Positions 23,433 through 43,844 of a stretch of 56,611 nucleotides of DNA are shown piece after piece. The stretch's first letter is position 1. Each line of letters begins with the position of its first letter. The translations under genes were made by a program, and so were the position numbers. The stretch lies in IMG/VR virus record IMGVR_UViG_3300018063_000015, positions 1-56,611 of that record. One strand, 5' to 3'. This DNA is from a virus (lineage: Duplodnaviria; Caudoviricetes). Below the pieces are notes generated by a model. It ran no database searches, had not been told where the DNA came from, and saw nothing but the letters and a program-made list of their open reading frames with translations.

Positions 23433-23927
23433 ATGACTGCCTTAGCTTGTGAAATTACTAATGCTGAATTAGTACAAGTACGTGTATTGACCAGTTTATT
23501 ACCAGTAGATCGTAAGGTGTTTGTGGCTGACACACGTGGGCCAGACTTCTCTGATACTGCTGTGTTAGCTGTATTATATGAACGACAACAAATGTTTCCT
23601 AAGCGAACGGCACTAGTCAACGTTCACACGATTAGCTTGGACAATGATGATGTAAAGTGGACTAGTGTAGCAGTAAAGGGAGCTAACTTTAGTCATTATT
23701 GGTCTGGTATAGTGCGTGATCCTTGTGAGTCAGCATTTAGAGTAGATATGTTGCTTATAAGTGCTATGTCAGATGAAGCTACCTTGAATGTATTAAAAGC
23801 ATGGGTACCTCATATGCGTACAAATGCTCCAGTGTGGATTCACAATTCAGATGCGTATACACAATATCCTCATATTAGGTTAATTGGTTGTATAGAGAAG
23901 GGGGCAGCATGTCTAGTAACGGATTAA
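23433..23927 (+). CDS. Possible degenerate class I SAM methyltransferase
   Basis: VDMLLIS...LKAWVPHMRTNAPVWIHN resembles the C-terminal half of Methyltransf_24; the glycine-rich SAM motif is eroded. Confidence 0.4.
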   Translation: MTALACEITNAELVQVRVLTSLLPVDRKVFVADTRGPDFSDTAVLAVLYERQQMFPKRTALVNVHTISLDNDDVKWTSVAVKGANFSHYWSGIVRDPCESAFRVDMLLISAMSDEATLNVLKAWVPHMRTNAPVWIHNSDAYTQYPHIRLIGCIEKGAACLVTD

Positions 23928-24586
23928 CTGTAGTAATGACTACTTATCTTCCAGATGGTCCAGTGGGCGAAGCACGATTAGGATATGCAAAGCACACAAT
24001 TGACGCTCTATATGATGTAGTCGATCACGGATTAGGATTGTTAGTTGTTACGCATGACGGGCCGCAAAATAATTGGCTGCATAACTTGTCCAGACATATG
24101 GATGCAATTAGGCTTAATTCTGTAATATACTACGGACCTCGTAATGGAATTGGTGCCAGCTTGAATCGTGCTATGCATGCTATTACTGGTAATTGGATGT
24201 ACATTACAGACGATTGGTTGCTACAGAAACCGATTGACTTCGGTAAAGCAATAGCTTTGCTCAAAGATTATGACTATGTTAGACTTGGGCCCCTACATCC
24301 GAACCTAGCGTGCACAACTAAATTCAACAAAGAACTTGGATGGTGGTTAGAATTGCATACTGGCAGCGGTTTTACATTTGCTACTAGGCCATTTGTAGCC
24401 ACCAAGACTTTTTACAATTACATAGGTCCATTTGATGAAGGCTTAGACGCATACGAGACAGAACGTTTATATAATAAACGTGTTAGCATGTTTAGTCCTA
24501 AGATGGCTGCATTGTTATCTGACGGTACTGAGTGGGAACACATTGGAGCCGTAGAGGTCGGGCGTGAAGCTATTTATACTACCTAA
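23909..24586 (+). CDS. Glycosyltransferase family 2 (GT-A)
   Basis: VVMTTY, VTHDG, GIGASLN, YITDDW and WEHIG; paralog of 22776-23432. Confidence 0.8.
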   Translation: MSSNGLTVVMTTYLPDGPVGEARLGYAKHTIDALYDVVDHGLGLLVVTHDGPQNNWLHNLSRHMDAIRLNSVIYYGPRNGIGASLNRAMHAITGNWMYITDDWLLQKPIDFGKAIALLKDYDYVRLGPLHPNLACTTKFNKELGWWLELHTGSGFTFATRPFVATKTFYNYIGPFDEGLDAYETERLYNKRVSMFSPKMAALLSDGTEWEHIGAVEVGREAIYTT

Positions 24587-27131
24587 TTTTCGCGGTGAAG
24601 ATAGCGGTGATGGTGGGATTAGACGTGTAGTTGAGGCTCAACGTCAACACTTACCAACATACGGTATAGAATGTGTTAATACACCCGAGGAAGCTGATGT
24701 AATTGCTGTTCATGCAGGATTATGGACTGATACTGACAAACCTGTAGTAACACATTGTCATGGTTTATATTGGAATGAATATCAATGGATGAATTGGGCC
24801 ATTGGTATGAATAAACAAGTAATAGATGCTATGCACAAGGCTGACATGGTTACGGCGCCGTCAGAATGGATAGCCAACATACTAAGACGTGGAATGTGGC
24901 TTAATCCTATTATACTCGGTCACGGTGTGGATATAAATGATTGGGTACCAGGTTCTAATGAAGGCTACGTTCTATGGAATAAGACACGTACTGATCCAGT
25001 ATGTGATCCAGTTCATTTAGATGAATTAGCTAATAGAGCACTTGATACTAAATTTGTTACTACATTTGGTCAGGTTGGGCCTAATGTTAACGTCACTGGT
25101 AAATTGCCATTTTGGGAAGCTAAACAGCACATTCAGAATGCTGGTGTTTATCTATGTACTTCCAGAGAAACGTTTGGGATCGGTACACTTGAGGCAATGG
25201 CGTGTGGAGTGCCAATACTAGCATTCAACTGGGGTGGACAGCGAGAATTTGTTAAGCATAAAGTACACGGATATCTTGCTGCTCCGTACAATTATGACGA
25301 TTTGCTACAAGGTTTATATTACTGCATAGAGCATCGTACTGAATTAGGACAAGCTGCACGAGCCTGTGTGCAAAACGAACATACGTGGCAAAAAGTTATG
25401 GGTAAATACGCTTCTATGTATAGAGCTTTGGCCATGCGACCTAATTATACGCCAAAAGTAAGTATAGTAATACCATGCTACAAACTTGAACAATATCTGC
25501 CTGATGCAGTAAACAGTATATTGAATCAGGAAGATTTTGATGACCTTGAAATAATAATAGTGGATGATGCATCGCCTACATGGAATGAAGCTAAATTGCC
25601 AGGTGACGCTAGAATACATGTAATTCATAACGAAACAAATCAGTATTTAGCTGGCTCTCTTAATACTGGCGTAGCAACCGCTAAGGGCAAATATATATTG
25701 CCACTCGACGCCGATAACATGATAGGACCGCGCACCTTGCGTGTATTGAGTGAAGCGTTGGATAAAGATAGAAACCTAGACATTACATATGGTAAAATAC
25801 TATTTGTCCATGAAGATGGTCACACACCAGATGGTACTGTTAGTCCAGATGGTATATCAACATGGCCACCAGCTAAATTCGATTTCAGATATCAAATGAT
25901 GCATCGTAATCAGGTACCAAGCACTAGCATGTATAGACGACAAGTGTGGCAGCGTGCAGGTGGATATCGAAAGCGTTGTCTTACTGCTGAAGATGCTGAC
26001 TTCTGGTGTCGTACTACACGATTAGGATTTAGGCCAGCACAAGTTACTGATGCAGTTACATTTATATATAGACAACGCCAAGGCTCAATGAGCCGCGTGC
26101 AAAGTGATTGGGCATGGAACGACTGGTATCCAGAAGCACACAATACACAGGCTACACCATTCGGTGTAGAAGGCATGCATAATAACGTACCAACGTATGA
26201 GCCTACACTTGTTAGTGTGGTCATACCTTGTGGACCTGGTCATCAGGAATATGTGTTAGATGCTGTAGATAGTGTTGTGTCACAGTCGTTTCAGCAATGG
26301 GAGTGCATAGTTGTTAATGACACTGGCGCGCCATTACCTTGGATACATCCTTTTGTTAGGCTTGTTAACACTAGTGGTGGGACAGGGCCTGCGAATGCTA
26401 GGAATGAAGGTATCAAAGAGGCGAGAGCAAAAGCTGTCATCCTATTGGATGCAGATGACTACCTACAACCTAACGCCATAGAACTGTTGTATGATACCTA
26501 TAAACGAAATGGTGGATATGTTTATAGTGACTTCTTTGCTCAAGGAGAAATTAAGCATACTCCAGACTACAGTTGTGAATCAGTATTGCGTAACATGCCA
26601 CATCCTATAATAGGATTGTATCCACGCGACGCTGCTAAATTTGACGCTACAATAGATGCTTGGGAGGATTGGGACTACTTAATTTCACTTAATGTCGCTG
26701 GTTATTGTGGCACTCGCGTGCCAGTACCACTATTTCATTACAGATTTAATACAGGTAATAGGCGAGAAGCATTTTATGCACGACAAGATGATATTAAAGA
26801 AGCTGTGCGTGCAAAATGGTATGATTACATACATGGAGGTAGGCAACTAATGGCCTGTAGTAGTTGTCCTGGTGGCGGTGGTGGACAGTGGGCTGGAAGT
26901 TCTAGTAGTATAGTAGCTCCAGATGGTGATGCAGTAATGTTAGAGTTCGTTGGTGCTCACAATGAACCACGTAGCTATAGAGGAAGTTCTGGACGTACAT
27001 ATAGATTTGGTGGTGATTCTGGGCATAAGATGAAGTTCGTTCTTAAAGGTGATATAGAAGGTTTAGTACAGAAAGGTATATTCAAAGTATATGAGACAGC
27101 TCAATCTATGCAACCGCTTGTTGCTAACTAG
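24564..27131 (+). CDS. Tri-domain glycosyltransferase GT4-GT2-GT2 with a C-terminal CxxC-led module
   Basis: GT4 motif ETFGIGTLEAMACGVP; GT2 motifs VSIVIPCY..VDDAS..LDAD and VSVVIP..VVND..LDADD..EDWD; internal RBS and ATG at 26850. Confidence 0.92.
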   Translation: MKLFILPNFRGEDSGDGGIRRVVEAQRQHLPTYGIECVNTPEEADVIAVHAGLWTDTDKPVVTHCHGLYWNEYQWMNWAIGMNKQVIDAMHKADMVTAPSEWIANILRRGMWLNPIILGHGVDINDWVPGSNEGYVLWNKTRTDPVCDPVHLDELANRALDTKFVTTFGQVGPNVNVTGKLPFWEAKQHIQNAGVYLCTSRETFGIGTLEAMACGVPILAFNWGGQREFVKHKVHGYLAAPYNYDDLLQGLYYCIEHRTELGQAARACVQNEHTWQKVMGKYASMYRALAMRPNYTPKVSIVIPCYKLEQYLPDAVNSILNQEDFDDLEIIIVDDASPTWNEAKLPGDARIHVIHNETNQYLAGSLNTGVATAKGKYILPLDADNMIGPRTLRVLSEALDKDRNLDITYGKILFVHEDGHTPDGTVSPDGISTWPPAKFDFRYQMMHRNQVPSTSMYRRQVWQRAGGYRKRCLTAEDADFWCRTTRLGFRPAQVTDAVTFIYRQRQGSMSRVQSDWAWNDWYPEAHNTQATPFGVEGMHNNVPTYEPTLVSVVIPCGPGHQEYVLDAVDSVVSQSFQQWECIVVNDTGAPLPWIHPFVRLVNTSGGTGPANARNEGIKEARAKAVILLDADDYLQPNAIELLYDTYKRNGGYVYSDFFAQGEIKHTPDYSCESVLRNMPHPIIGLYPRDAAKFDATIDAWEDWDYLISLNVAGYCGTRVPVPLFHYRFNTGNRREAFYARQDDIKEAVRAKWYDYIHGGRQLMACSSCPGGGGGQWAGSSSSIVAPDGDAVMLEFVGAHNEPRSYRGSSGRTYRFGGDSGHKMKFVLKGDIEGLVQKGIFKVYETAQSMQPLVAN

Positions 27132-37643: not shown

Positions 37644-38564
37644 ATGACGGAACGCAGTCGCTTCTGGGATGGTACAGCTACAGGCGATGCTACAATAGCA
37701 CCGTATGATGCTGGTACAGAATTTGCACAAGTATTAATGTCAATTAGTCAAGCTAATGGTATACCGACAGATCGCAGTTATGTATTTACTGATGAATTAA
37801 ATGAATTGGTGCCTACGGGGGCAGCTAGCCCAGTTAGTATAGGTACTGGTCGTGCGTTAGTATATGGTAACTGGTACGAAAACGACTCTGCTGTATCAGT
37901 AGTTATTCCTACACCTGCTGCATCTACAAGAATAGATAGAATAGTTGCACGTAAAGGATGGGCGGCACAAACTGTACGTATTACACGTATAGCTGGTACA
38001 GAAGGTGGCGGTGCACCAGCTATAACACAAACTGCTGGCACAACGTGGGATATGCCAATTTGTCAAGCTAGTATTACAACTGGTGGTGTGATAACAATAA
38101 CGGATGAACGCGATTTTTTAACCACTAGTCGTGAAATAGTGCCGTGTGCAAGGGCATATCATAATGTCTCCCAATCTATTGCAAATAGTACGATTACCGT
38201 ATTAGCACTTAATTCAGAAGATTTTGATACAAATGGATTTCATAGTACTACTAGTCGAATGACTATTCCATCAGATATGGCTGGTGTCTATTTGATAATT
38301 GCAAATATGCAGTGGGCTGCAAATACAACTGGTCTGCGGCAATGTTTTATATTATTAAATGGTGCAAATCAAATTGCTAAATCCGAAATGGAACCAGCCA
38401 CAACTGGCTTTACAACACACGCATTAAGTACAATTTATAATGCTGCCGTTGGAGATTATTTTGAAATACAAGTTCAACAAGCTAGTGGTGGTCCATTAGA
38501 TGCAAGAGGTGACGCTCCCGCAGCACCAATGCTACAGATTGTACGATTGGGGACATTATCATAA
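37644..38564 (+). CDS. Minor tail / receptor-binding protein with a C1q/TNF-like C-terminus
   Basis: RIDRIVAR baseplate-type N-terminus; ARAYH..Q...FDTNG...MTIP..AGVYLI C-terminal head. Confidence 0.7.
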   Translation: MTERSRFWDGTATGDATIAPYDAGTEFAQVLMSISQANGIPTDRSYVFTDELNELVPTGAASPVSIGTGRALVYGNWYENDSAVSVVIPTPAASTRIDRIVARKGWAAQTVRITRIAGTEGGGAPAITQTAGTTWDMPICQASITTGGVITITDERDFLTTSREIVPCARAYHNVSQSIANSTITVLALNSEDFDTNGFHSTTSRMTIPSDMAGVYLIIANMQWAANTTGLRQCFILLNGANQIAKSEMEPATTGFTTHALSTIYNAAVGDYFEIQVQQASGGPLDARGDAPAAPMLQIVRLGTLS

Positions 38565-39226
38565 TGCCTGAATTTGGTAGACTAGAAGCAATTGATCAAC
38601 GTGATCGACTACATGCAATGCCATCGTTAATAGCTACTAGAACTAAGATGTTCTGGATAACTGGTCCTGTGCTTAATCAAGGTAGCTATCCGCACTGCGT
38701 TGGATACGCTTGGAAACAGTTTCTACAGACTACACCACGTCGCACACTAGTGGGGCCTAATGGCACCGATATATACAGAGAAGCACAATACATAGATGAA
38801 TGGCCTGGTGAGAGTTATGACGGCACTAGCGTGCGTGCTGGAGCTAAAGTCTTAAATAATCGTAGTTATTTGAGCGAATACGTTTGGGGCTATAGCGTAG
38901 ATGTTATACGTGACTTTGTGCTAATGCGTGGACCCGCCGTATTAGGCTCAGCGTGGCATCAAGGTATGATGAATCCAGACGTAAATGGTTGGGTGTATCC
39001 AGTTGGTCCTATAATGGGTGGTCATGCTTACGTGGCATGTGGTTATTCTGCGGTACGCAACGCATTTAGATGTATAAATAGTTGGGGCCTACAATGGGGG
39101 CAGAAAGGTAAGTTCTGGTTGCATAGAGATGACTTACAGGTACTATTAAATTCAGGCGGAGAAGCGTGCTCCGCAATAGAGAAGAAAAGTGCTTTGCCTA
39201 GCTTTAGCAATGTTAATGCTGGTTAA
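38564..39226 (+). CDS. Papain-like (C1) cysteine peptidase
   Basis: NQGSYPHCVGYAW, GGHAY and NSWG..WG..G motifs (catalytic Cys/His/Asn). Confidence 0.88.
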   Translation: MPEFGRLEAIDQRDRLHAMPSLIATRTKMFWITGPVLNQGSYPHCVGYAWKQFLQTTPRRTLVGPNGTDIYREAQYIDEWPGESYDGTSVRAGAKVLNNRSYLSEYVWGYSVDVIRDFVLMRGPAVLGSAWHQGMMNPDVNGWVYPVGPIMGGHAYVACGYSAVRNAFRCINSWGLQWGQKGKFWLHRDDLQVLLNSGGEACSAIEKKSALPSFSNVNAG

Positions 39227-39500
39227 TAGCATACGTGAAGAGCCGTTACAGTTTGATTACAGTATGCTAGACTACGCAAATGCTAGAGCAGAAGCACAAT
39301 CAGGTCCACTCTTTTCACACGAAGGCGCTTTATATGCTGAAACTATAGTTGGCTCTATGACTGTAGAAGGTGCATTTGAGGCCCTAACTAACAGCCCAGA
39401 ACACCACAATATCCTTGTAGACAATCGGTTCACAAGAATAGCAATAGGAGTAGCACAACGTGATGGTTATATTGTGTTCGTACAGGTACTACTAGAGTGA
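39189..39500 (+). CDS. CAP (SCP) domain protein with a signal-like N-terminus
   Basis: FSH, AETI, NSPEHHNIL...FTRIAIGVA and VQVL. Confidence 0.75.
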   Translation: MLCLALAMLMLVNSIREEPLQFDYSMLDYANARAEAQSGPLFSHEGALYAETIVGSMTVEGAFEALTNSPEHHNILVDNRFTRIAIGVAQRDGYIVFVQVLLE

Positions 39501-39841
39501 CACCAGAATTTATGAGTACAGTTCTAGCTCCATTACTTAACTTTGGTGCAATAGGTATTCTTGCCATATTGTTATGGTTTCAACTTGGACAGGCAAGAGA
39601 AGAACGTATAAAAATACAAGAGCAACATAATATTACAATGGAAAAGCAGTCTAATACTTATGCCGATATGGTAAAAGAAGGCACTAAAGCAACTATGGAA
39701 GCAGCTATGTCAACACGCGAAGCTGCAACTGCTATGCACGAACTTGCAGCAAGCGTAAAGGAGTTGTCAACCACTCAAGTACAAGAACGCAAGGAAGTTT
39801 TAGAAGAAATAAGACGAGCAGTGAAAGGAAACGGAAGATGA
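39497..39841 (+). CDS. Holin-like protein (one N-terminal TM helix plus coiled coil, BhlA/UviB-like)
   Basis: LLNFGAIGILAILLWF followed by a charged helix; lies in the lysis cassette. Confidence 0.55.
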   Translation: MTPEFMSTVLAPLLNFGAIGILAILLWFQLGQAREERIKIQEQHNITMEKQSNTYADMVKEGTKATMEAAMSTREAATAMHELAASVKELSTTQVQERKEVLEEIRRAVKGNGR

Positions 39842-40050
39842 CCTATTCAATACAGTATGGACTAGCTGTAGGAGTCTCACTAGCAAGCGTAGCAGTGGGT
39901 GTTATCTTGAATACACCTGCCGCTAATTTAGGGATAAGCCCAATTGTGGCAGAATGGTTTAAGGTAATACTGCCTGTATTGTCTGTACTAGCTGGTATTT
40001 TACCATCAGTACGTCGCCCCCCAGAAGAAGCACGTAGAGGCAAAGATTAG
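39838..40050 (+). CDS. Putative holin (2 TM)
   Basis: Two hydrophobic helices and a basic C-terminus, directly before the lysin genes. Confidence 0.6.
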   Translation: MTYSIQYGLAVGVSLASVAVGVILNTPAANLGISPIVAEWFKVILPVLSVLAGILPSVRRPPEEARRGKD

Positions 40051-40920
40051 TTGTTAGGAACTAATGTAGATCATAGGCATTGGACTAACATGCGTGCACT
40101 TGCACGCGATGTAGCTGCTAGCGGTGCTAAAGTAGTACGCACTGTGCTAAAGCCTGACGACCATTTAATAATACCCTGGATAACTGCGTGCCGTAGCCGT
40201 GATATTAAAGTATTAGGTGTACTTGCTCGTGAAAGTGGTGACTTCAATCAATATATACATTTACCATTGGACTACTGGCAGATTGGTAACGAGACTGACA
40301 ATCCTGATGGTGAGGCGTCGTGGTACCAGACTCATGACGAGATAAACGATCTAATACGCGCTGTGCGGCTCGCTTTGCCTCACGCCTACCTAATCGGTCC
40401 AGGACTCGTGACAGGCGCCCCAGCGTGGCTAAATGGCCTTGATCTGACGGTACTGGACGCAATCGCGGCGCACTTCTACGGCGACATCCTGATAGATGTC
40501 TACAAAGACGCGGCGCCGCATTTAGACTTATGGGTAACTGAGTTTCCATGGGCTGAAACAGCGTATGATATAGCAAGTCATCCTAGCGTTAAAGGTGCCT
40601 GTCACTTTTGTTGGTCAAACGTAATGCACCCTGATTATGGACTTATTGAGCGACCAGAAGCATATAGTGTGTTCAAGCAAGCGACTTACAAGCTAATGGA
40701 GGGCAAAATGGCTGGATTAAACGTCGGACAAGGTTTGTGGGATTATGTACTAAGTAAGGGTGATCAGGCTAATCGTGATAGTAGATTTACAACTAATCAA
40801 AATGGTACTACGCTAGAAGAAGTGTGGGGTTCGTTAGGCTACTATTATTGTAGTAACGCTACTGGTAGCGATGGTGAACTTGGTGACTTGGAGTATTACG
40901 GCCCTTTTGGGGGACAGTAG
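40051..40920 (+). CDS. Clan GH-A glycoside hydrolase, probable endolysin, with a C-terminal 70-aa module
   Basis: WQIGNE acid/base and LWVTEF nucleophile motifs, DAIAAHFY; internal GGAGG RBS and ATG at 40708. Confidence 0.75.
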   Translation: MLGTNVDHRHWTNMRALARDVAASGAKVVRTVLKPDDHLIIPWITACRSRDIKVLGVLARESGDFNQYIHLPLDYWQIGNETDNPDGEASWYQTHDEINDLIRAVRLALPHAYLIGPGLVTGAPAWLNGLDLTVLDAIAAHFYGDILIDVYKDAAPHLDLWVTEFPWAETAYDIASHPSVKGACHFCWSNVMHPDYGLIERPEAYSVFKQATYKLMEGKMAGLNVGQGLWDYVLSKGDQANRDSRFTTNQNGTTLEEVWGSLGYYYCSNATGSDGELGDLEYYGPFGGQ

Positions 40921-40936
40921 GAATTACGCCTACTGT
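40902..40936 (+). other. -1 programmed ribosomal frameshift signal
   Basis: Slippery heptamer C CCT TTT (40902-40908) in the GH frame, 5-nt spacer, then stem-loop ACAGTAGG-AATTACG-CCTACTGT. Confidence 0.7.
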
Positions 40937-41393
40937 ATTATACGTACCTGGTAACGTGTTGCACACGTTTGCACACCCACCTCAAGGTATTATATTTCAT
41001 TCTACACGTAGTGGCCAATCATGGGATGTAAATAAAGAATTTGAAGTTACTGTTAATTATGTTAAGAATGGTGCGGCAGGATTAGGATGGAATGCAACTA
41101 TAGGCAACAATGTAGTTGCGATACATGGTCCATCTGACAAATGGGGTTGGAATGCACGAATGCATAGCCGAGACTATCTAGCTATAGAGTTTGCTCAAGC
41201 TAAACTGGGCGATACAATTACCGATGCACAAATAGAAGCGGCAGCTTATTACATTAAGAATTACTGCCAAGGTGTTCCATATTACTTCCCAGAACATAGA
41301 GAATTGCCAGCAGGTATAGCTGACGGTAAATCAGACATAGGTGCAGATCAACACGTACCGGAACGTGTTAAGCTAAAGCTACTGCAAACATAA
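40908..41393 (+). CDS. N-acetylmuramoyl-L-alanine amidase (Amidase_2) domain, probably expressed as a -1 frameshift fusion
   Basis: GIIFHSTRS, WNA, LAIEFAQ, ITDAQIEAAA, EHRE and GKSD Zn-amidase motifs. The frame is open from 40887; there is no RBS before GTG 40956. Confidence 0.8.
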   Translation, partial: WGTVGITPTVLYVPGNVLHTFAHPPQGIIFHSTRSGQSWDVNKEFEVTVNYVKNGAAGLGWNATIGNNVVAIHGPSDKWGWNARMHSRDYLAIEFAQAKLGDTITDAQIEAAAYYIKNYCQGVPYYFPEHRELPAGIADGKSDIGADQHVPERVKLKLLQT

Positions 41394-41655
41394 GTCTACA
41401 AAACGCATGCCCTAAATGGTCATCTTCTTTATTGCCAGATAAGTAAGCGAATATATGTGTCATAGCATGGTCTAAGTGGTCATCCACTGATATCTTACGC
41501 CAGTTGCCTTTGCCATACTTTTCACGTCCTGTATATAAGATATTAGCCAATCGAAACATAGCACTTGCGTCTAGTTCCGTAAATGCAAAGTGCAATTCAG
41601 ATTGAGAGCCACCCTGTTCATTAATGACTATTGATGTATCTGGGCCTAAATTCAT
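41368..41655 (-). CDS. dATP/dGTP diphosphohydrolase-like domain protein (DUF5664)
   Basis: LA.IL..G.EKYG..NWRK....HLDHA..H..AY..G..EDDHLGHA.C.LMF. Confidence 0.8.
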   Translation of the reverse strand: MNLGPDTSIVINEQGGSQSELHFAFTELDASAMFRLANILYTGREKYGKGNWRKISVDDHLDHAMTHIFAYLSGNKEDDHLGHAFCRLMFAVALA

Positions 41656-41966
41656 CCGTTATATACCAATCTGTAGTTGCCCTTTGGCACGTTGTGTATG
41701 GTAAATCCCTTTGGTAATACCTTTCGCAATATCCATACCCTTTTCAACATAATAGTATAATCTATGTCTATATCCTCAAACGATATACAAGCTGGATATT
41801 TGAAGATTAAGGCAACAAGCAGCCTCCTTATTCTTGATTCTAAATGTATTTGTTCGTTTATATACCATATATCACCGTATATGTCACTGTATAATGGACC
41901 TACACTCCAACAGCCACGTGTGGCAGCAAGTAGCTGTCTATTAGTTGGTTCAAAGCTGGACGACAC
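41652..41966 (-). CDS. OmpR-like winged-helix protein
   Basis: LLVALI......ISFEDI....VWILRKVL....IHNVPKGNYRL. Confidence 0.6.
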   Translation of the reverse strand: MSSSFEPTNRQLLAATRGCWSVGPLYSDIYGDIWYINEQIHLESRIRRLLVALIFKYPACISFEDIDIDYTIMLKRVWILRKVLPKGFTIHNVPKGNYRLVYNG

Positions 41967-42312: not shown

Positions 42313-42648
42313 TCATAATTGCCCCCTATTGGCTACAGACAAAGTGTTCAATTCATCAAGCAGGTTTAATACTACTTCTGGAGTCTCTTTATCCTCTGAA
42401 TACGGATGCTCTATTGGATCAACTAATCCTAATATTATCATGGCTAGCCACCGCCAGTGATTTGCTGTACCTTCTATTTGACATGACTCGTCTTTCCCGT
42501 ATCCTGTCCACCACCAGTCATAGTCAGTTCGCTGCAAATGTACACGTTTAGCAGCATTTATGTGTTCTGGCATTTGTTCTTTAGCTTTTATATAACGTTC
42601 TCGTATTGCCTCTCGCTCTCTTGGGCTCATTGAAGTTACTCCGATCAT
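42313..42648 (-). CDS. Hypothetical protein
   Basis: ORF track; ATGA coupling. Confidence 0.6.
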   Translation of the reverse strand: MIGVTSMSPREREAIRERYIKAKEQMPEHINAAKRVHLQRTDYDWWWTGYGKDESCQIEGTANHWRWLAMIILGLVDPIEHPYSEDKETPEVVLNLLDELNTLSVANRGQL

Positions 42649-43844
42649 GGTGGAGATAAATCCTGTCTTACTTCTATAGATCTTAGCCTGCTATTGATAT
42701 TCATGAGTATTTGACGCAACGAATCTGGGTCTGTTGATGTATCACTATGTTGGAAAGTGATTTTCTCTTTACCTTCTGCTACGTGTACTGAGGCTTCAAC
42801 TAGTCTCTTATTATGATCCTCCCTTTCATCAAATTTAAATGTTGTTATATCGCCAAAGAAGTAATCACGTCCATAACGAGAACCACCAGTTTGTAACACC
42901 TCAAATGAGCAATTATCCTTAGCTGCTAATGTAATTAGCTCTGAATCTCCTTCTAATTGTAATGCTGTTACTGTACTACTATTGCGTGCATCGTGCGTTT
43001 TCTCTATTTTATTCCAAGGACTTAATCCTTGTGCTGTCAAATTATCACGTATTTCAACTGCACGAGCTAAGTCTTGTCCTTGACCCAATACTATTATGCT
43101 ATTGACTTCCTCCGTGCGACTTACGATGAAGTTTGGATTAACCATGTTACCAAAACCTGTACTAAATATTACAGGTGGTAATACTGATTGTTGAGTTGAT
43201 CTGTCGGATGCAAACGTGCTACTACATTGAAATGTGAATATTATACCATCTTTAGTTATCCAAAAGAATACACCAGTAGCTTCTGTAATCTTTCTAAGCA
43301 CGTCAAGTAAGTTTTGATAAGACACGGAACCATTCCATGTGTCTCCTGTGCCAACGTCTGGTGAAATAACTAGCCCTGGCGTTATACCATCTTGTAATCT
43401 ACCTCCACTTACTAATGCATTTGGACCAGCATTCTCGTCTACAAATGACTTTATTACAGTTTCTGCTGGTCCTGACTTTGTGGCACGTGCATGGGTGACT
43501 TTATATAGAATAGATCGTCTATTTAATAAATCTTCATAAGTCCTACCATAGCTAGTATATAGCTTTAATCCTCGTGCAGATATTGTACGTTGTAATGTGC
43601 GATGGAAGCCACTATAATCTAAGTATTCAGCTATACCAGCAGCAAGATCACTACGATGTACTTCAATAAAGTTGTCTGGTGCCAATGTTATTTCTGGATC
43701 AGGCATGGAATTAGCATGAAAGCTAATTGTATGTGACCCAAAGCCGTTGATGGTTCTACTATAGTTTAAGGCATTGAAATCATTGGTTTCAAAGAGCAGA
43801 GTGTTAGCAGTATTTAGTATGCGTACCTTATATCTAACAGGCAT
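42645..43844 (-). CDS. Siphovirus minor tail / baseplate hub protein (ReqiPepy6 Gp37-like)
   Basis: L.Y.R.ING.G, YEDLL.RR, GPAETVIK..V, YQNLLDVL, VIFS..FGNM, V.GQG...R and YGRDYF.GDI. Confidence 0.8.
   Translation of the reverse strand: MPVRYKVRILNTANTLLFETNDFNALNYSRTINGFGSHTISFHANSMPDPEITLAPDNFIEVHRSDLAAGIAEYLDYSGFHRTLQRTISARGLKLYTSYGRTYEDLLNRRSILYKVTHARATKSGPAETVIKSFVDENAGPNALVSGGRLQDGITPGLVISPDVGTGDTWNGSVSYQNLLDVLRKITEATGVFFWITKDGIIFTFQCSSTFASDRSTQQSVLPPVIFSTGFGNMVNPNFIVSRTEEVNSIIVLGQGQDLARAVEIRDNLTAQGLSPWNKIEKTHDARNSSTVTALQLEGDSELITLAAKDNCSFEVLQTGGSRYGRDYFFGDITTFKFDEREDHNKRLVEASVHVAEGKEKITFQHSDTSTDPDSLRQILMNINSRLRSIEVRQDLSPP

What the first reader, a model, noticed from the sequence alone, without database searches (positions are those of the whole stretch)
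40051..41393. Recoded endolysin locus: a -1 frameshift plus an internal start could give four proteins sharing one 70-aa module
Seen: the GH-A hydrolase ORF ends ...GGC CCT TTT GGG GGA CAG TAG. C_CCT_TTT is a perfect X_XXY_YYZ heptamer, followed after 5 nt by an 8-bp perfect stem-loop. The -1 frame is open from 40887 straight into the amidase, which lacks its own RBS. An in-frame GGAGG-ATG at 40708 starts a 70-aa module X. Predicted products: GH-X (289 aa), GH-X-amidase (447 aa), X (70 aa) and X-amidase (228 aa). Established: internal starts yield multimeric endolysins (CTP1L, Lys170), and -1 frameshifts are common in tail genes. Combining both to set the stoichiometry of a two-enzyme lysin complex is not something I recognise as described.
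Basis: partly seen in the sequence, partly recalled or inferred. Interest (0 to 1): 0.8.

Follow-up and report, generated by a model that had tools for sequence, protein, structure and literature searches.

The report
Frameshift-joined two-enzyme phage lysin
In this uncultured phage, the cell-wall amidase gene most likely has no start of its own and is made only when ribosomes slip back one base at the end of the preceding glycosidase gene, a way of joining two lysis enzymes that also appears in distant relatives and that I could not find described.

Summary
The ORF 40051-40920 ends in an in-phase C_CCT_TTT heptamer (40902-40908). A perfect 8-bp hairpin follows 5 nt later. The -1 frame is open from 40887 into an Amidase_2 domain.

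The -1 frameshift reading is supported by several results:
- The 16 codons between the heptamer and GTG 40956 match the N-terminus of the amidase family. They add 9.1 bits, more than any of 200 shuffles. They include a confidently modelled beta-strand.
- Of 34 non-redundant related loci fetched by amidase homology alone, 10 carry an in-phase CCCTTTN or CCCAAAA at the same junction (Fisher p = 5.5e-7).
- Three of those 10 have no canonical start before the catalytic motif.
- One deep clade of 8 loci is entirely frameshift-type.
- Other relatives encode the same glycosidase and amidase families in one ORF.
- Contigs from three sequencing runs are identical across the site.

The internal start at 40708, and therefore the four-product model, is not beyond chance. 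A stand-alone 72-aa homologue of module X does begin exactly at that position. Self-association of X could not be judged.

The main rival is separate initiation at GTG 40956.

I put the probability of a programmed -1 frameshift at about 0.68. Six literature searches found no such case in an endolysin.

The parts
40051..40920 (+). 0-frame gene: glycosidase plus module X, 289 aa, TTG start directly after the stop of the preceding gene
   Evidence: The homologues' N-termini (MIGINVDHRHW) align with the TTG-started N-terminus, not with ATG 40090, which the public gene call uses (P0003, 276 aa).
40051..40701 (+). Clan GH-A-like (beta/alpha)8 catalytic domain (residues 1-217)
   Evidence: AF2 pLDDT is 95-98 over this range. 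Foldseek matches GH30, GH39 (PslG), GH5, GH26 and GH128 at E 1e-9 to 1e-7. N80-E81 follows strand 4 and E164 lies in strand 7, both nearly invariant. Relatives hit PF11790. The window protein itself has no Pfam hit.
40708..40917 (+). Module X (residues 220-289): one helix and three strands, then a disordered tail. Begins at an in-frame ATG.
   Evidence: AF2 gives helix 227-235 and strands 245-268, with pLDDT below 50 at 276-280 and 282-289. The stand-alone homologue P0135 (72 aa, 59% identity) matches residues 220-288. No Pfam or PHROG hit.
40698..40702 (+). GGAGG, 5 nt upstream of ATG 40708 (candidate internal ribosome-binding site)
   Evidence: It is one of 8 GGAGG-N(3-9)-start combinations on the + strand, most at non-genic places, so it is not beyond chance.
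40884..40886 (+). TGA that closes the -1 frame upstream. The shift must occur between here and the 0-frame stop.
40902..40908 (+). Slippery heptamer C_CCT_TTT, in phase with the 0 frame (codons G284-P285-F286)
   Evidence: The same or equivalent in-phase heptamers occur in 10 of 34 related loci.
40914..40936 (+). Perfect 8-bp stem with a 7-nt loop, 5 nt after the heptamer. The stem contains the 0-frame stop codon.
   Evidence: -10.1 kcal/mol, positional chance about 0.003. No covariation test was possible because no close relative's DNA is available.
40918..40920 (+). TAG stop of the 0-frame product, 3 codons after the heptamer
40908..41393 (+). -1 frame continuation: linker, N-terminal strand and Amidase_2 domain (161 codons plus stop). 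With residues 1-286 it gives a 447-aa trans-frame product.
   Evidence: Pfam Amidase_2 scores 26.6 bits against a cut-off of 26. AF2 pLDDT is 93.7. Foldseek matches AmiA, AmpD, PlyL, XlyA, PGRPs and T7 lysozyme. The extension adds 9.1 bits.
40923..40925 (+). ATT codon in the -1 frame (Ile of ITPTV), preceded by GGGGGA 8 nt upstream. Possible non-canonical start (rival).
   Evidence: The family HMM alignment begins at this residue.
40956..40958 (+). GTG (followed by TTG 40959), the only canonical start for a free-standing 145-aa amidase (rival, or an additional route)
   Evidence: There is no SD-like motif upstream, but most genes of this phage lack one too. This is the public gene call (P0012).
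39497..40050 (+). Two small genes (114 aa and 70 aa) directly upstream with long hydrophobic stretches. Candidate holins, which would make this a lysis cassette.
   Evidence: Translations, with hydrophobic runs read by eye. No informative Pfam or PHROG hit. The function is inferred from position only.

Best explanation
The locus is the endolysin module of an uncultured siphovirus-like phage from freshwater sediment.

Most ribosomes translate 40051-40920 and stop at TAG. That yields a 289-aa protein with a clan GH-A-type glycosidase barrel, the small module X and a disordered tail.

A fraction of ribosomes slip back one base on C_CCT_TTT (40902-40908). The peptidyl tRNA-Pro re-pairs from CCU to CCC, and the aminoacyl tRNA-Phe from UUU to UUU. 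The 8-bp hairpin 5 nt downstream probably helps. These ribosomes read on through a short linker into an Amidase_2 (N-acetylmuramoyl-L-alanine amidase) domain and produce a 447-aa glycosidase-X-amidase protein.

The amidase therefore has no, or no adequate, start of its own. Its amount relative to the glycosidase is set by the slip frequency.

Shown here: the sequence signals, the homology and predicted structure of the codons between the slip site and GTG 40956, recurrence of in-phase slip sites at the same junction in distant relatives, and the existence of one-ORF versions.

Inferred: that slippage actually occurs, how efficient it is, the role of the hairpin, that X binds the cell wall, and what the glycosidase cleaves.
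For: 1. The signals in the window are beyond chance. Expected in-phase heptamers in the 34-nt overlap: 0.0125. Hairpin at the right spacing: about 0.003. It is the only one of 16 in-phase heptamers in + strand genes followed by a long -1 ORF.

2. The -1 frame codons before GTG 40956 look translated.
- A family HMM built without the window scores 218.1 bits with the 16-residue extension against 209.0 without it.
- 200 shuffles of the extension give a mean of 210.2 (sd 1.0, max 214.3). The other two frames give 210.4 and 209.4.
- AF2 (pLDDT 93.7) places a strand at residues 16-19 of P0001, upstream of V24. The mean pLDDT of residues 11-20 is 90.
- 25 of 36 homologues have all four residues there.

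3. Family-level recurrence. Loci were fetched by amidase homology only. Of 34 non-redundant loci:
- 10 have an in-phase heptamer in the window where a shift must occur: CCCTTTT in 4, CCCTTTC in 1, CCCTTTA in 2, CCCAAAA in 3.
- There are 11 in-phase and 2 out-of-phase heptamers in 3,655 nt, with 0.90 expected (Poisson 3e-9, binomial 2e-4).
- 11 heptamers fall in 1,158 codons inside the windows and 9 in 10,667 codons of the same genes outside (odds ratio 11.4, Fisher p = 5.5e-7).
- 9 of the 17 occurrences of CCCTTTT, CCCTTTA and CCCAAAA on both strands of 96 kb sit at this junction.

4. The constraint is on nucleotides, not on the peptide. The dipeptide varies (P-F, P-L, P-K) while the X_XXY_YYZ pattern is kept. 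It uses rare codons: CCT is 43 of 198 Pro codons, TTT 32 of 96 Phe, TTA 9 of 260 Leu.

5. No alternative start in several loci. 3 of the 10 heptamer loci (L004, L011, L031) have no ATG, GTG or TTG between the heptamer and the catalytic motif. L006 and L009 have none in 57 and 73 upstream codons.

6. Persistence. A well-supported deep clade (98/94) of 8 loci is entirely frameshift-type (6 with a -1 heptamer, 2 with a +1 T6 run), with different heptamers and different upstream partners.

7. The fused product is a natural design.
- P0168, P0177 and P0202 (432-433 aa) and L014 encode the same glycosidase and amidase families in one ORF.
- P0034, P0015, P0031 and L040 encode X-amidase in one ORF.
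- L002 has glycosidase-X followed by the amidase in the -1 frame, as in the window.

8. The slip codons lie in a disordered tail after X, with pLDDT below 50. In all 11 cases the -1 frame sequence after the site is linker-like.

9. The amidase is intact and keeps all 23 family-invariant positions.

10. The sequence is identical in contigs of 3 runs.

11. C_CC.U_UU.U, C_CC.U_UU.C and C_CC.A_AA.A belong to the classes reported as most efficient in E. coli, H_HH.U_UU.Y and V_VV.A_AA.R (passages of PMC4066793).
Against: - A canonical GTG/TTG (40956/40959) lies 10 codons before the catalytic motif. 11 of 36 homologue gene calls begin at or after the equivalent position, so a short free-standing amidase is conceivable.
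- The amidase relative nearest by tree path whose DNA I could read (L039, 52% identity) has its own GTG overlapping the upstream stop (GTGA).
- P0022 probably lies next to the stand-alone X homologue P0135. This rests only on their equal longest-contig length of 31,645. P0022 is called from an ATG three residues before the PGN motif.
- 8 of 34 loci use a separate or coupled start. 3 loci in the -1 arrangement have only a U_UUU tetramer.
- The hairpin has no covariation support. Downstream folding in the 11 heptamer loci is not consistently strong: z ranges from +1.06 to -2.52, and only 3 of 11 are at or below -1.8.
- Most genes of this phage lack a Shine-Dalgarno motif, so its absence before GTG 40956 says little.
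- There are no RNA or protein data. The host and its tRNA set are unknown.
- The read check used contigs at low depth in the two independent runs.
Confidence: 0.68

Rival explanations
1. There are two ordinary genes. The glycosidase-X protein ends at TAG 40920. The amidase is started separately at GTG 40956 or TTG 40959, 36 nt downstream, by re-initiation or direct initiation. The heptamer and hairpin are coincidental or a relic.
For: - These are the only canonical starts in the frame, and GTG 40956 is the public gene call (P0012, 145 aa).
- Pfam's Amidase_2 match begins 6 residues after V24.
- 11 of 36 homologue calls start at or after this point.
- Relatives L039, L028, L017, L024 and L003 use starts that overlap the upstream stop.
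- This phage often starts genes without an SD, and its glycosidase gene starts at a TTG abutting the previous stop.
Against: - It discards 16 codons that add 9.1 bits of family homology, more than any of 200 shuffles.
- It discards a strand modelled at about pLDDT 90 that 25 of 36 homologues keep.
- It does not explain the in-phase heptamer plus hairpin.
- It does not explain the enrichment of in-phase heptamers at the same junction in 10 of 34 loci, 3 of which lack any canonical start.
- Short gene calls in homologues may themselves be forced choices, as in the window.
Confidence: 0.2
2. The amidase starts at the non-canonical ATT 40923, with GGGGGA 8 nt upstream as ribosome-binding site. This gives a free 156-aa amidase that keeps the N-terminal strand.
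For: - The family HMM alignment begins exactly at this Ile.
- A purine-rich GGGGGA lies at a suitable distance.
- Some homologues begin a few residues before the TP motif (P0040, P0049, P0065).
Against: - ATT starts are very rare in bacteria (recalled, not tested).
- The ATT sits in the loop of the hairpin and its upstream motif abuts the stem.
- There is no comparable conserved non-canonical start in the other loci, while slip heptamers recur.
- It does not explain the phase of the heptamer.
Confidence: 0.03
3. A formerly fused glycosidase-X-amidase gene carries a recent 1-nt deletion in the C3T4G5 run, either a real mutation or an assembly error. In that case the amidase is silent, decaying, or rescued only by background slippage.
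For: - The site is a homopolymer-rich run where indels arise.
- One extra T or G would fuse the frames.
- One related locus (L015) is a fused form broken by an apparent short duplication, which I read by eye in the output.
Against: - Contigs of 3 runs from 3 studies are identical with no gaps.
- The amidase keeps all 23 family-invariant residues over 145 or more codons.
- The 0-frame product ends where X-bearing homologues end, 0-4 codons after PF or PK.
- The same arrangement recurs with different heptamers in distant loci and throughout one deep clade.
Confidence: 0.06
4. In addition to the frameshift, translation starts internally at ATG 40708, so free X (70 aa) and X-amidase (228 aa) are made. 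These assemble through X with the long forms into a multimeric lysin of set stoichiometry.
For: - GGAGG lies 5 nt before an in-frame ATG at the domain boundary.
- The stand-alone homologue P0135 (72 aa) starts at the equivalent Met with the same first four residues.
- A Met stands at or next to this position in 3 other glycosidase-X proteins (P0101, P0126, P0004).
- One-ORF X-amidase proteins start at the same boundary (P0034, L040).
Against: - GGAGG-N(3-9)-start occurs 8 times on the + strand, mostly at non-genic places. GGAGG is not the usual start signal of this phage.
- The Met may be a relic of a gene fusion.
- No data bear on oligomers.
Confidence: 0.25

Closest known systems
Tail assembly chaperone G/GT-type -1 frameshift of tailed phages (Xu, Hendrix and Duda 2004; seen only as a cited reference in passages, otherwise recalled)
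   Same: - A phage late-gene pair in which the second ORF lies in the -1 frame and lacks its own start.
- An X_XXY_YYZ heptamer near the end of the first ORF.
- Short and long products that share an N-terminal part.
- The position is conserved while the sequences diverge.
   Different: The gene products are lysis enzymes, not assembly chaperones. The extension is a complete catalytic domain. In the same family, fused, coupled and frameshifted versions coexist. No evident frameshift was seen at the one ORF pair I examined in the window as a possible tail-chaperone pair (its identity was not established): ATG 23910 has its own purine-rich motif.
dnaX and IS3-family transposase -1 frameshifts (passages of PMC4066793; details of dnaX recalled)
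   Same: A heptamer plus a downstream structure. The 0-frame stop lies a few codons after the slip site. The slip frequency sets the ratio of two proteins.
   Different: Different heptamers (C_CCU_UUN or C_CCA_AAA instead of A_AAA_AAG). An upstream SD-like stimulator was not shown. Here the frameshift adds a domain, as in IS3, rather than truncating, as in dnaX.
Endolysins that give two products from one gene by an internal in-frame start (Ms6 lysA, PMC3111421: search listing and start of abstract only; CTP1L, CD27L and Lys170: recalled)
   Same: One lysis locus gives several polypeptides that share a module. A candidate in-frame start exists at the boundary of X (40708).
   Different: The mechanism proposed here is a change of frame at the 3' end, not a second start. 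The internal start is unproven here. Self-association of X could not be judged.
Alteromonas phage vB_AspP-H4/4 genes 39/40 (PMC5658483, passage read)
   Same: A genome announcement states that a putative slippery sequence lies in the overlap of an endolysin gene and the next gene, which would be read by a -1 frameshift.
   Different: There the downstream product is an internal virion protein of a podovirus, not a second lytic domain. No comparative or experimental support is given in the passage I saw. The proteins are unrelated to these.
Split lysin A genes of actinobacteriophages (PMC11556095, passage 'split lysin A gene'; general knowledge recalled)
   Same: The catalytic domains of one lysin are distributed over two adjacent genes.
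   Different: Those are annotated as separately started genes. This amidase subfamily has no match in 50,697 phage records, so I could not test whether any split lysin A uses a frameshift.

Membership tests
Programmed -1 ribosomal frameshift cassette (X_XXY_YYZ type) | In-phase slippery heptamer inside the overlap of the 0 and -1 frames | tested here: met
   C_CCT_TTT at 40902-40908 is the only heptamer in the 34-nt overlap. 0.0125 are expected.
Programmed -1 ribosomal frameshift cassette (X_XXY_YYZ type) | The downstream -1 ORF encodes real protein from the slip site on, with no start of its own upstream of that sequence | tested here: met
   The extension adds 9.1 bits, more than any of 200 shuffles. 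A strand is modelled at residues 16-19 with pLDDT about 90. There is no ATG, GTG or TTG between 40887 and 40955. A GTG lies further downstream, so an additional start is not excluded.
Programmed -1 ribosomal frameshift cassette (X_XXY_YYZ type) | Stimulatory RNA structure 5-9 nt downstream | tested here: inconclusive
   An 8-bp perfect hairpin follows after 5 nt (-10.1 kcal/mol, positional chance about 0.003). No covariation test was possible. Related loci show no common structure: z from +1.06 to -2.52, 3 of 11 at or below -1.8.
Programmed -1 ribosomal frameshift cassette (X_XXY_YYZ type) | Conservation of the signal at the same junction in homologues | tested here: met
   10 of 34 non-redundant loci carry it. 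Fisher p = 5.5e-7 and Poisson 3e-9. A clade of 8 is entirely frameshift-type. 8 of 34 use their own starts and 8 of 34 are fused.
Programmed -1 ribosomal frameshift cassette (X_XXY_YYZ type) | Trans-frame protein observed | not testable with these tools
   No RNA-holding run is listed and no proteomics are available.
Amidase_2 / PGRP-type N-acetylmuramoyl-L-alanine amidase (PF01510) | Profile match at or above the curated cut-off | tested here: met
   26.6 bits against a cut-off of 26, E = 8.3e-6, residues 30-129 of P0001. This is borderline. A PDB sequence search with the family profile found nothing.
Amidase_2 / PGRP-type N-acetylmuramoyl-L-alanine amidase (PF01510) | Fold | tested here: met
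   AF2 pLDDT is 93.7. Foldseek matches AmiA 4knl (E = 1.9e-6), AmpD, PlyL, XlyA, PGRPs and T7 lysozyme 1aro_L.
Amidase_2 / PGRP-type N-acetylmuramoyl-L-alanine amidase (PF01510) | Metal-binding and catalytic residues | tested here: inconclusive
   The family-invariant H38, H137, K148 and D150 are present in the window. Their identification as zinc ligands or catalytic residues rests on recall of T7 lysozyme, not on a superposition done here.
Clan GH-A glycoside hydrolases | (beta/alpha)8 barrel with Asn-Glu after strand 4 and Glu in strand 7 | tested here: met
   Strands lie at 75-78 and 159-165. N80-E81 and T163-E164 are invariant or nearly so. Foldseek matches are to GH-A families.
Clan GH-A glycoside hydrolases | Assignment to one family or substrate | tested here: inconclusive
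   The window protein has no Pfam hit. Relatives hit PF11790 weakly. The best folds span GH30, GH39, GH5, GH26 and GH128 at 11-16% identity. It is not one of the usual muramidase families. In relatives it is fused to GH25, GH19+M23, GH19+NlpC/P60 or Amidase_2.
LGFP repeat (PF08310), as identity of module X | Profile match | tested here: not met
   The window's X has no hit. The junction modules of L017 and L024 do match (26.2 and 30.1 bits against a cut-off of 22). L004 is below the cut-off at 20.4 bits. A profile-profile comparison of window-type X with those modules gives probability 14.7%.
Multimeric endolysin made by an internal translation start (CTP1L/Lys170 type) | Functional in-frame start with ribosome-binding site at the boundary of the shared module | tested here: inconclusive
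   GGAGG-N5-ATG is present at 40708 but is not beyond chance. The stand-alone homologue P0135 begins at the same Met.
Multimeric endolysin made by an internal translation start (CTP1L/Lys170 type) | Self-association of the shared module | not testable with these tools
   The single complex job returned no verdict.

The most novel reading that the evidence does not exclude
A whole family of uncultured, probably actinobacterial, phage lysis cassettes may use ribosomal frameshifting as a standard connector. The slip is usually -1 on C_CCU_UUN or C_CCA_AAA, and in one branch +1 or -2 on a U6 run. A slip site sits in the disordered tail of a small wall-associated module, and this module-plus-slip-site cassette attaches interchangeable upstream partners (GH-A glycosidase, transglycosylase-like domains, small coiled-coil proteins) to one Amidase_2 domain. 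The phage would then make a one-enzyme and a two-enzyme lysin in a fixed ratio from one message. In this phage an internal start at 40708 would add free X and X-amidase. This would be the first recoding signal described in endolysins and a new way of tuning lysin composition.
Probability: 0.55. Interest if true: 0.85.

Novelty: new variant of a known kind. Interest (0 to 1): 0.72.

Why it matters
Endolysins are modular, and known ways of making several products from one lysin locus are internal starts, separate genes and proteolysis. A conserved frameshift that appends a second catalytic domain would add recoding to that list.

It would give phages a translational control over the ratio of two wall-cleaving activities. 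It would also mean that gene callers systematically mis-annotate these amidases as short, oddly started ORFs; the window's own public call is 145 aa.

The finding supplies a set of natural slip sites (C_CCU_UUU, C_CCU_UUC, C_CCU_UUA, C_CCA_AAA) in high- and low-GC backgrounds. The same amidase occurs in fused, coupled and frameshifted states, which makes it a compact system for studying how frameshift signals arise and are lost.

For enzyme engineering, the 447-aa trans-frame protein, not the annotated pieces, may be the active lysin.

Tried and rejected
- Public phage genomes: blastn of 39800-41700 and tblastn of the amidase against 50,697 phage records found no match.
- IMG/VR scans with the amidase alignment, the amidase alone and P0135 confirmed no relative. 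The scan with the glycosidase alignment gave only L041 (a one-ORF glycosidase-amidase of another Amidase_2 type) and L042 (glycosidase-X followed by an ATGA-coupled gene).
- The word-based search with module X alone found no candidates.
- The earlier-findings tool was not open.
- RNA: no RNA holder is listed, so expression could not be examined.
- Self-association of X (2 copies, residues 220-289): the job gave no verdict (score 0.00 against a mark of 0.42) and the partner's own fold was uncertain. This is not evidence either way.
- In-genome comparison with a tail-chaperone frameshift: the ORF pair 23433-23927 and 23888-24586, which I took to be a possible tail-chaperone pair, shows an ordinary ATG (23910) with a purine-rich motif and no heptamer, so no comparison was possible.
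- X as an LGFP repeat: not supported for the window.
- PDB sequence search with the amidase profile: nothing at E of 0.01 or better.
- An upstream SD-like stimulator (GGAG 8 nt before the heptamer) was read by eye only. No consistent pattern appeared in the other loci and I did not pursue it.
- One literature query was rejected for syntax and not re-sent.
- The DNA of the most informative Logan and JGI relatives (P0014, P0135/P0022, P0101, P0126, P0004-6) could not be fetched.


Full report
THE OBSERVATION

The + strand ORF from 40051 (TTG) to 40920 encodes 289 aa and ends GGC CCT TTT GGG GGA CAG TAG. C_CCT_TTT at 40902-40908 is a formally perfect, in-phase X_XXY_YYZ heptamer. Five nucleotides later, ACAGTAGG, a 7-nt loop and CCTACTGT (40914-40936) form a perfect 8-bp hairpin of -10.1 kcal/mol.

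The -1 frame is closed by TGA 40884-40886. From 40887 it runs without a stop to 41393. Its only canonical starts before the catalytic core are GTG 40956 and TTG 40959. GGAGG (40698-40702) lies 5 nt before the in-frame ATG 40708.

Comparison with chance in the window:
- 16 in-phase heptamers (Y = A/T) occur in 10,585 codons of + strand genes.
- Only the one at 40902 is followed by a long -1 ORF (163 codons; the others at most 49).
- 0.0125 in-phase heptamers are expected in the 34-nt overlap.
- A perfect 8-bp hairpin starting 4-9 nt after a given site has a chance of about 0.003.
- The wider 81-nt fold is unremarkable (z = -1.53).

Contigs from three runs of freshwater sediment metagenomes (three studies) carry the slip region with no difference and no gap. 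One of the three may be the source of this DNA. The two others have depths of 4.45 and 2.2. An assembly indel in the C3T4G5 run is therefore unlikely. These are contigs, not raw reads.

WHAT THE PARTS ARE

The glycosidase. The N-terminal 217 residues fold with high confidence (pLDDT 89.9 for the whole protein) into a (beta/alpha)8 barrel. Foldseek finds clan GH-A enzymes (GH30 xylanases, PslG, GH5, GH26, GH128) at E of 1e-9 to 1e-7 and 11-16% identity. Asn80-Glu81 after strand 4 and Glu164 in strand 7 are invariant or nearly so. The window protein has no Pfam hit, while relatives weakly hit PF11790. In other proteins this domain is fused to GH25, GH19+M23, GH19+NlpC/P60 or Amidase_2. It therefore belongs to lysins, but its substrate is open. 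The homologues' N-termini show that the gene starts at TTG 40051, not at ATG 40090 as publicly called.

Module X. Residues 220-289 form a helix and three strands followed by a disordered tail, and the slip codons lie in that tail. X is portable:
- It ends glycosidase proteins (P0004-6, P0008, P0101, P0126).
- It begins one-ORF X-amidase proteins (P0034, P0015, P0031, L040).
- It exists alone (P0135, 72 aa, 59% identical).

In some related loci the module at this position is a Pfam LGFP repeat (L017 and L024, 26-30 bits). For the window's X that link is not supported.

The amidase. The downstream ORF is an Amidase_2. Pfam scores 26.6 bits against a cut-off of 26. AF2 gives pLDDT 93.7. Foldseek matches AmiA, AmpD, PlyL, XlyA, PGRPs and T7 lysozyme. 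All 23 family-invariant positions are kept.

Context. Upstream lie two small hydrophobic proteins that are holin candidates by position only, a peptidase (phrog_16701) and a CAP-domain protein. Further marks are siphovirus-type (Dit, Sipho_Gp37).

IS THE STRETCH BEFORE GTG 40956 TRANSLATED?

- In the alignment of 36 homologues, the window's -1 frame residues ITPTVLYVPGN align with the family's N-terminal motif.
- A family HMM built without the window scores 218.1 bits with the 16-residue extension and 209.0 without it. 200 shuffles give a mean of 210.2 (sd 1.0, max 214.3). The other two frames give 210.4 and 209.4.
- AF2 places a strand at residues 16-19 of the -1 ORF, with mean pLDDT of 90 for residues 11-20. 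This is upstream of V24, which is GTG 40956.
- 25 of 36 homologues have all four residues there, and 11 start later.

So codons without a canonical start encode a conserved, structured part of the domain.

COMPARATIVE TEST

Loci were fetched by amidase homology alone: 38 from metagenomes and 2 from genomes. After I dropped 6 near-duplicates (L007, L010, L018, L021, L025, L034), 34 remained. They fall into these classes:

| Class | Count | Loci |
|---|---|---|
| -1 overlap with an in-phase heptamer | 10 | L004, L011, L012, L020, L029, L031, L035, L036, L037, L038 |
| -1 overlap with only a U_UUU tetramer | 3 | L002, L006, L009 |
| +1 overlap on a T6 run | 2 | L032, L033 |
| Own or stop-overlapping start | 8 | L001, L003, L013, L016, L017, L024, L028, L039 |
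| One fused ORF | 8 | L005, L014, L019, L022, L023, L026, L030, L040 |
| Fused form broken by an apparent duplication | 1 | L015 |
| Cut at the 5' end | 2 | L008, L027 |

The heptamers are CCCTTTT (4 loci), CCCTTTC (1), CCCTTTA (2) and CCCAAAA (3).

Statistics on the windows where a shift would have to occur (3,655 nt in total):
- 11 in-phase and 2 out-of-phase heptamers, with 0.90 expected (Poisson 3e-9, binomial 2e-4).
- Against the same genes outside those windows: 11 in 1,158 codons versus 9 in 10,667 codons (odds ratio 11.4, Fisher p = 5.5e-7).
- 9 of 17 occurrences of CCCTTTT, CCCTTTA and CCCAAAA on both strands of 96 kb lie at this junction.

The encoded dipeptide changes (P-F, P-L, P-K) while the nucleotide pattern is kept. 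It uses rare codons: CCT is 43 of 198 Pro codons, TTT 32 of 96 Phe, and TTA 9 of 260 Leu. This points to selection on the RNA rather than the peptide.

L004, L011 and L031 have no ATG, GTG or TTG between the heptamer and the catalytic motif. L006 and L009 have none in 57 and 73 upstream codons.

On a tree of 33 amidase cores, the heptamer class needs at least 3 changes. One deep clade of 8 (support 98/94) is entirely frameshift-type, with different heptamers and different partners. This fits long-term maintenance, not decay.

The sequences after the slip sites are linker-like in all 11 cases.

Proteins that carry the same glycosidase and the same amidase families in one ORF (P0168, P0177, P0202, L014) show that the fused polypeptide is a normal design. 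L002 has the window's architecture of glycosidase-X followed by the amidase in the -1 frame.

RESULTS AGAINST THE READING

- The amidase relative nearest by tree path whose DNA I could read (L039, 52% identity) starts its amidase at a GTG overlapping the upstream stop.
- The amidase that probably lies next to the stand-alone X homologue is called from its own ATG close to the PGN motif. The link between the two rests only on an equal longest-contig length of 31,645.
- The window has GTG/TTG 10 codons before the catalytic motif. This phage starts many genes without an SD.
- An ATT (40923) with GGGGGA 8 nt upstream sits exactly where the HMM alignment begins.
- The hairpin could not be tested by covariation. 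Downstream folds in the 11 heptamer loci are not consistently strong: z from +1.06 to -2.52, with 3 of 11 at or below -1.8.
- There are no RNA or protein data.

THE INTERNAL START

GGAGG-N5-ATG at 40708 is in frame at the domain boundary. P0135 begins at the same Met. P0101, P0126 and P0004 also have a Met at or next to it.

However, GGAGG-N(3-9)-start occurs 8 times on the + strand, mostly where no gene starts, and GGAGG is not this phage's usual start signal. The Met may be a fusion relic.

The four-product scheme therefore stays a hypothesis, at about 0.25. Self-association of X could not be judged.

MECHANISM I COMMIT TO

Most ribosomes finish the 289-aa glycosidase-X protein. A fraction slip -1 on C_CCU_UUU (Pro CCU to CCC, Phe UUU to UUU), probably aided by the hairpin, and make the 447-aa glycosidase-X-amidase.

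The heptamer classes found here belong to those reported as most efficient in E. coli (passages of PMC4066793).

The efficiency, the role of the hairpin, wall binding by X and the glycosidase substrate are all inferred.

My probabilities are:
- Frameshift functional in this phage: 0.68.
- Separate GTG start only: 0.20.
- Mutation or error: 0.06.
- ATT start: 0.03.
- Other: the remainder.

COMPARISON WITH WHAT IS KNOWN, AND NOVELTY

The logic is that of phage G/GT tail chaperones, IS3 transposases and dnaX. The biological setting resembles endolysins that give several products by internal starts.

Six full-text searches found no frameshift joining lysin domains. So did term look-ups in two recoding papers. 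One was the Atkins 2016 review, with 0 occurrences of 'endolysin' and 0 of 'amidase' in the held 300,000 of 449,034 characters. The other was a 2025 preprint.

The nearest statement in print is a genome announcement. It proposes a -1 shift from an endolysin gene into an internal virion protein of an Alteromonas podovirus (PMC5658483, passage). Supplements were closed, and subscription journals are not covered by the searches.

I rate the finding a new variant of a known kind.

Noticed in passing
L032:1692-1801, L033:419-537, L034:1146-1264: In one branch of the amidase family the amidase lies in the +1 (or -2) frame of the upstream gene. The overlap holds TAC TTT TTT CGC, a U6 run on which tRNA-Phe could shift +1 or -2. 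The upstream protein ends with an X-like module.
   Followed up: partly
L015:371-530: A transglycosylase-like-amidase gene that is one ORF in its relatives (L022, L005, L023) is interrupted here by what looks like a short tandem duplication (repeated CCTCCATCG). This is an example of an unprogrammed frame break in the same family. I read it by eye only.
   Followed up: no
window 40051-40092: The public gene call for the glycosidase starts at ATG 40090 (276 aa). The homologues' N-termini match a start at TTG 40051, which directly abuts the stop of the preceding gene.
   Followed up: yes
window 38564-39500: Just upstream of the candidate holins lie a peptidase (phrog_16701, E = 1e-43) and an overlapping small CAP/SCP-domain protein (PF00188, 21.3 bits). 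These are unusual neighbours for a lysis cassette.
   Followed up: no
window 24564-27131: The 855-aa ORF that I first took for a tape measure matches glycosyltransferase PHROGs (GtrB-like, E about 3e-11) over residues 170-515.
   Followed up: no
window, whole: Most genes lack a clear Shine-Dalgarno motif. Several start at GTG or TTG abutting or overlapping the previous stop. GC content is 0.42. Relatives of the lysis genes come from high-GC, partly actinobacterial, sequences, and Sipho_Gp37 (a Rhodococcus-phage family) is present. A low-GC freshwater actinobacterial host is a guess.
   Followed up: no
L001, L003, L006, L011, L020 (ORFs just upstream of the amidase): In five loci the upstream partner is not an enzyme but a 60-110-aa protein with a coiled-coil-like N-terminus (LE..I..LE.QQ pattern) and no Pfam hit. 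In L011 and L020 it ends at an in-phase CCCAAAA.
   Followed up: partly
window 41368-41655 (-) and 42645-43844 (-): Directly after the amidase the coding strand switches. The first minus-strand genes are a dATP/dGTP diphosphohydrolase N-terminal domain protein (PF18909) and, further on, a Sipho_Gp37-like protein encoded on the minus strand.
   Followed up: no
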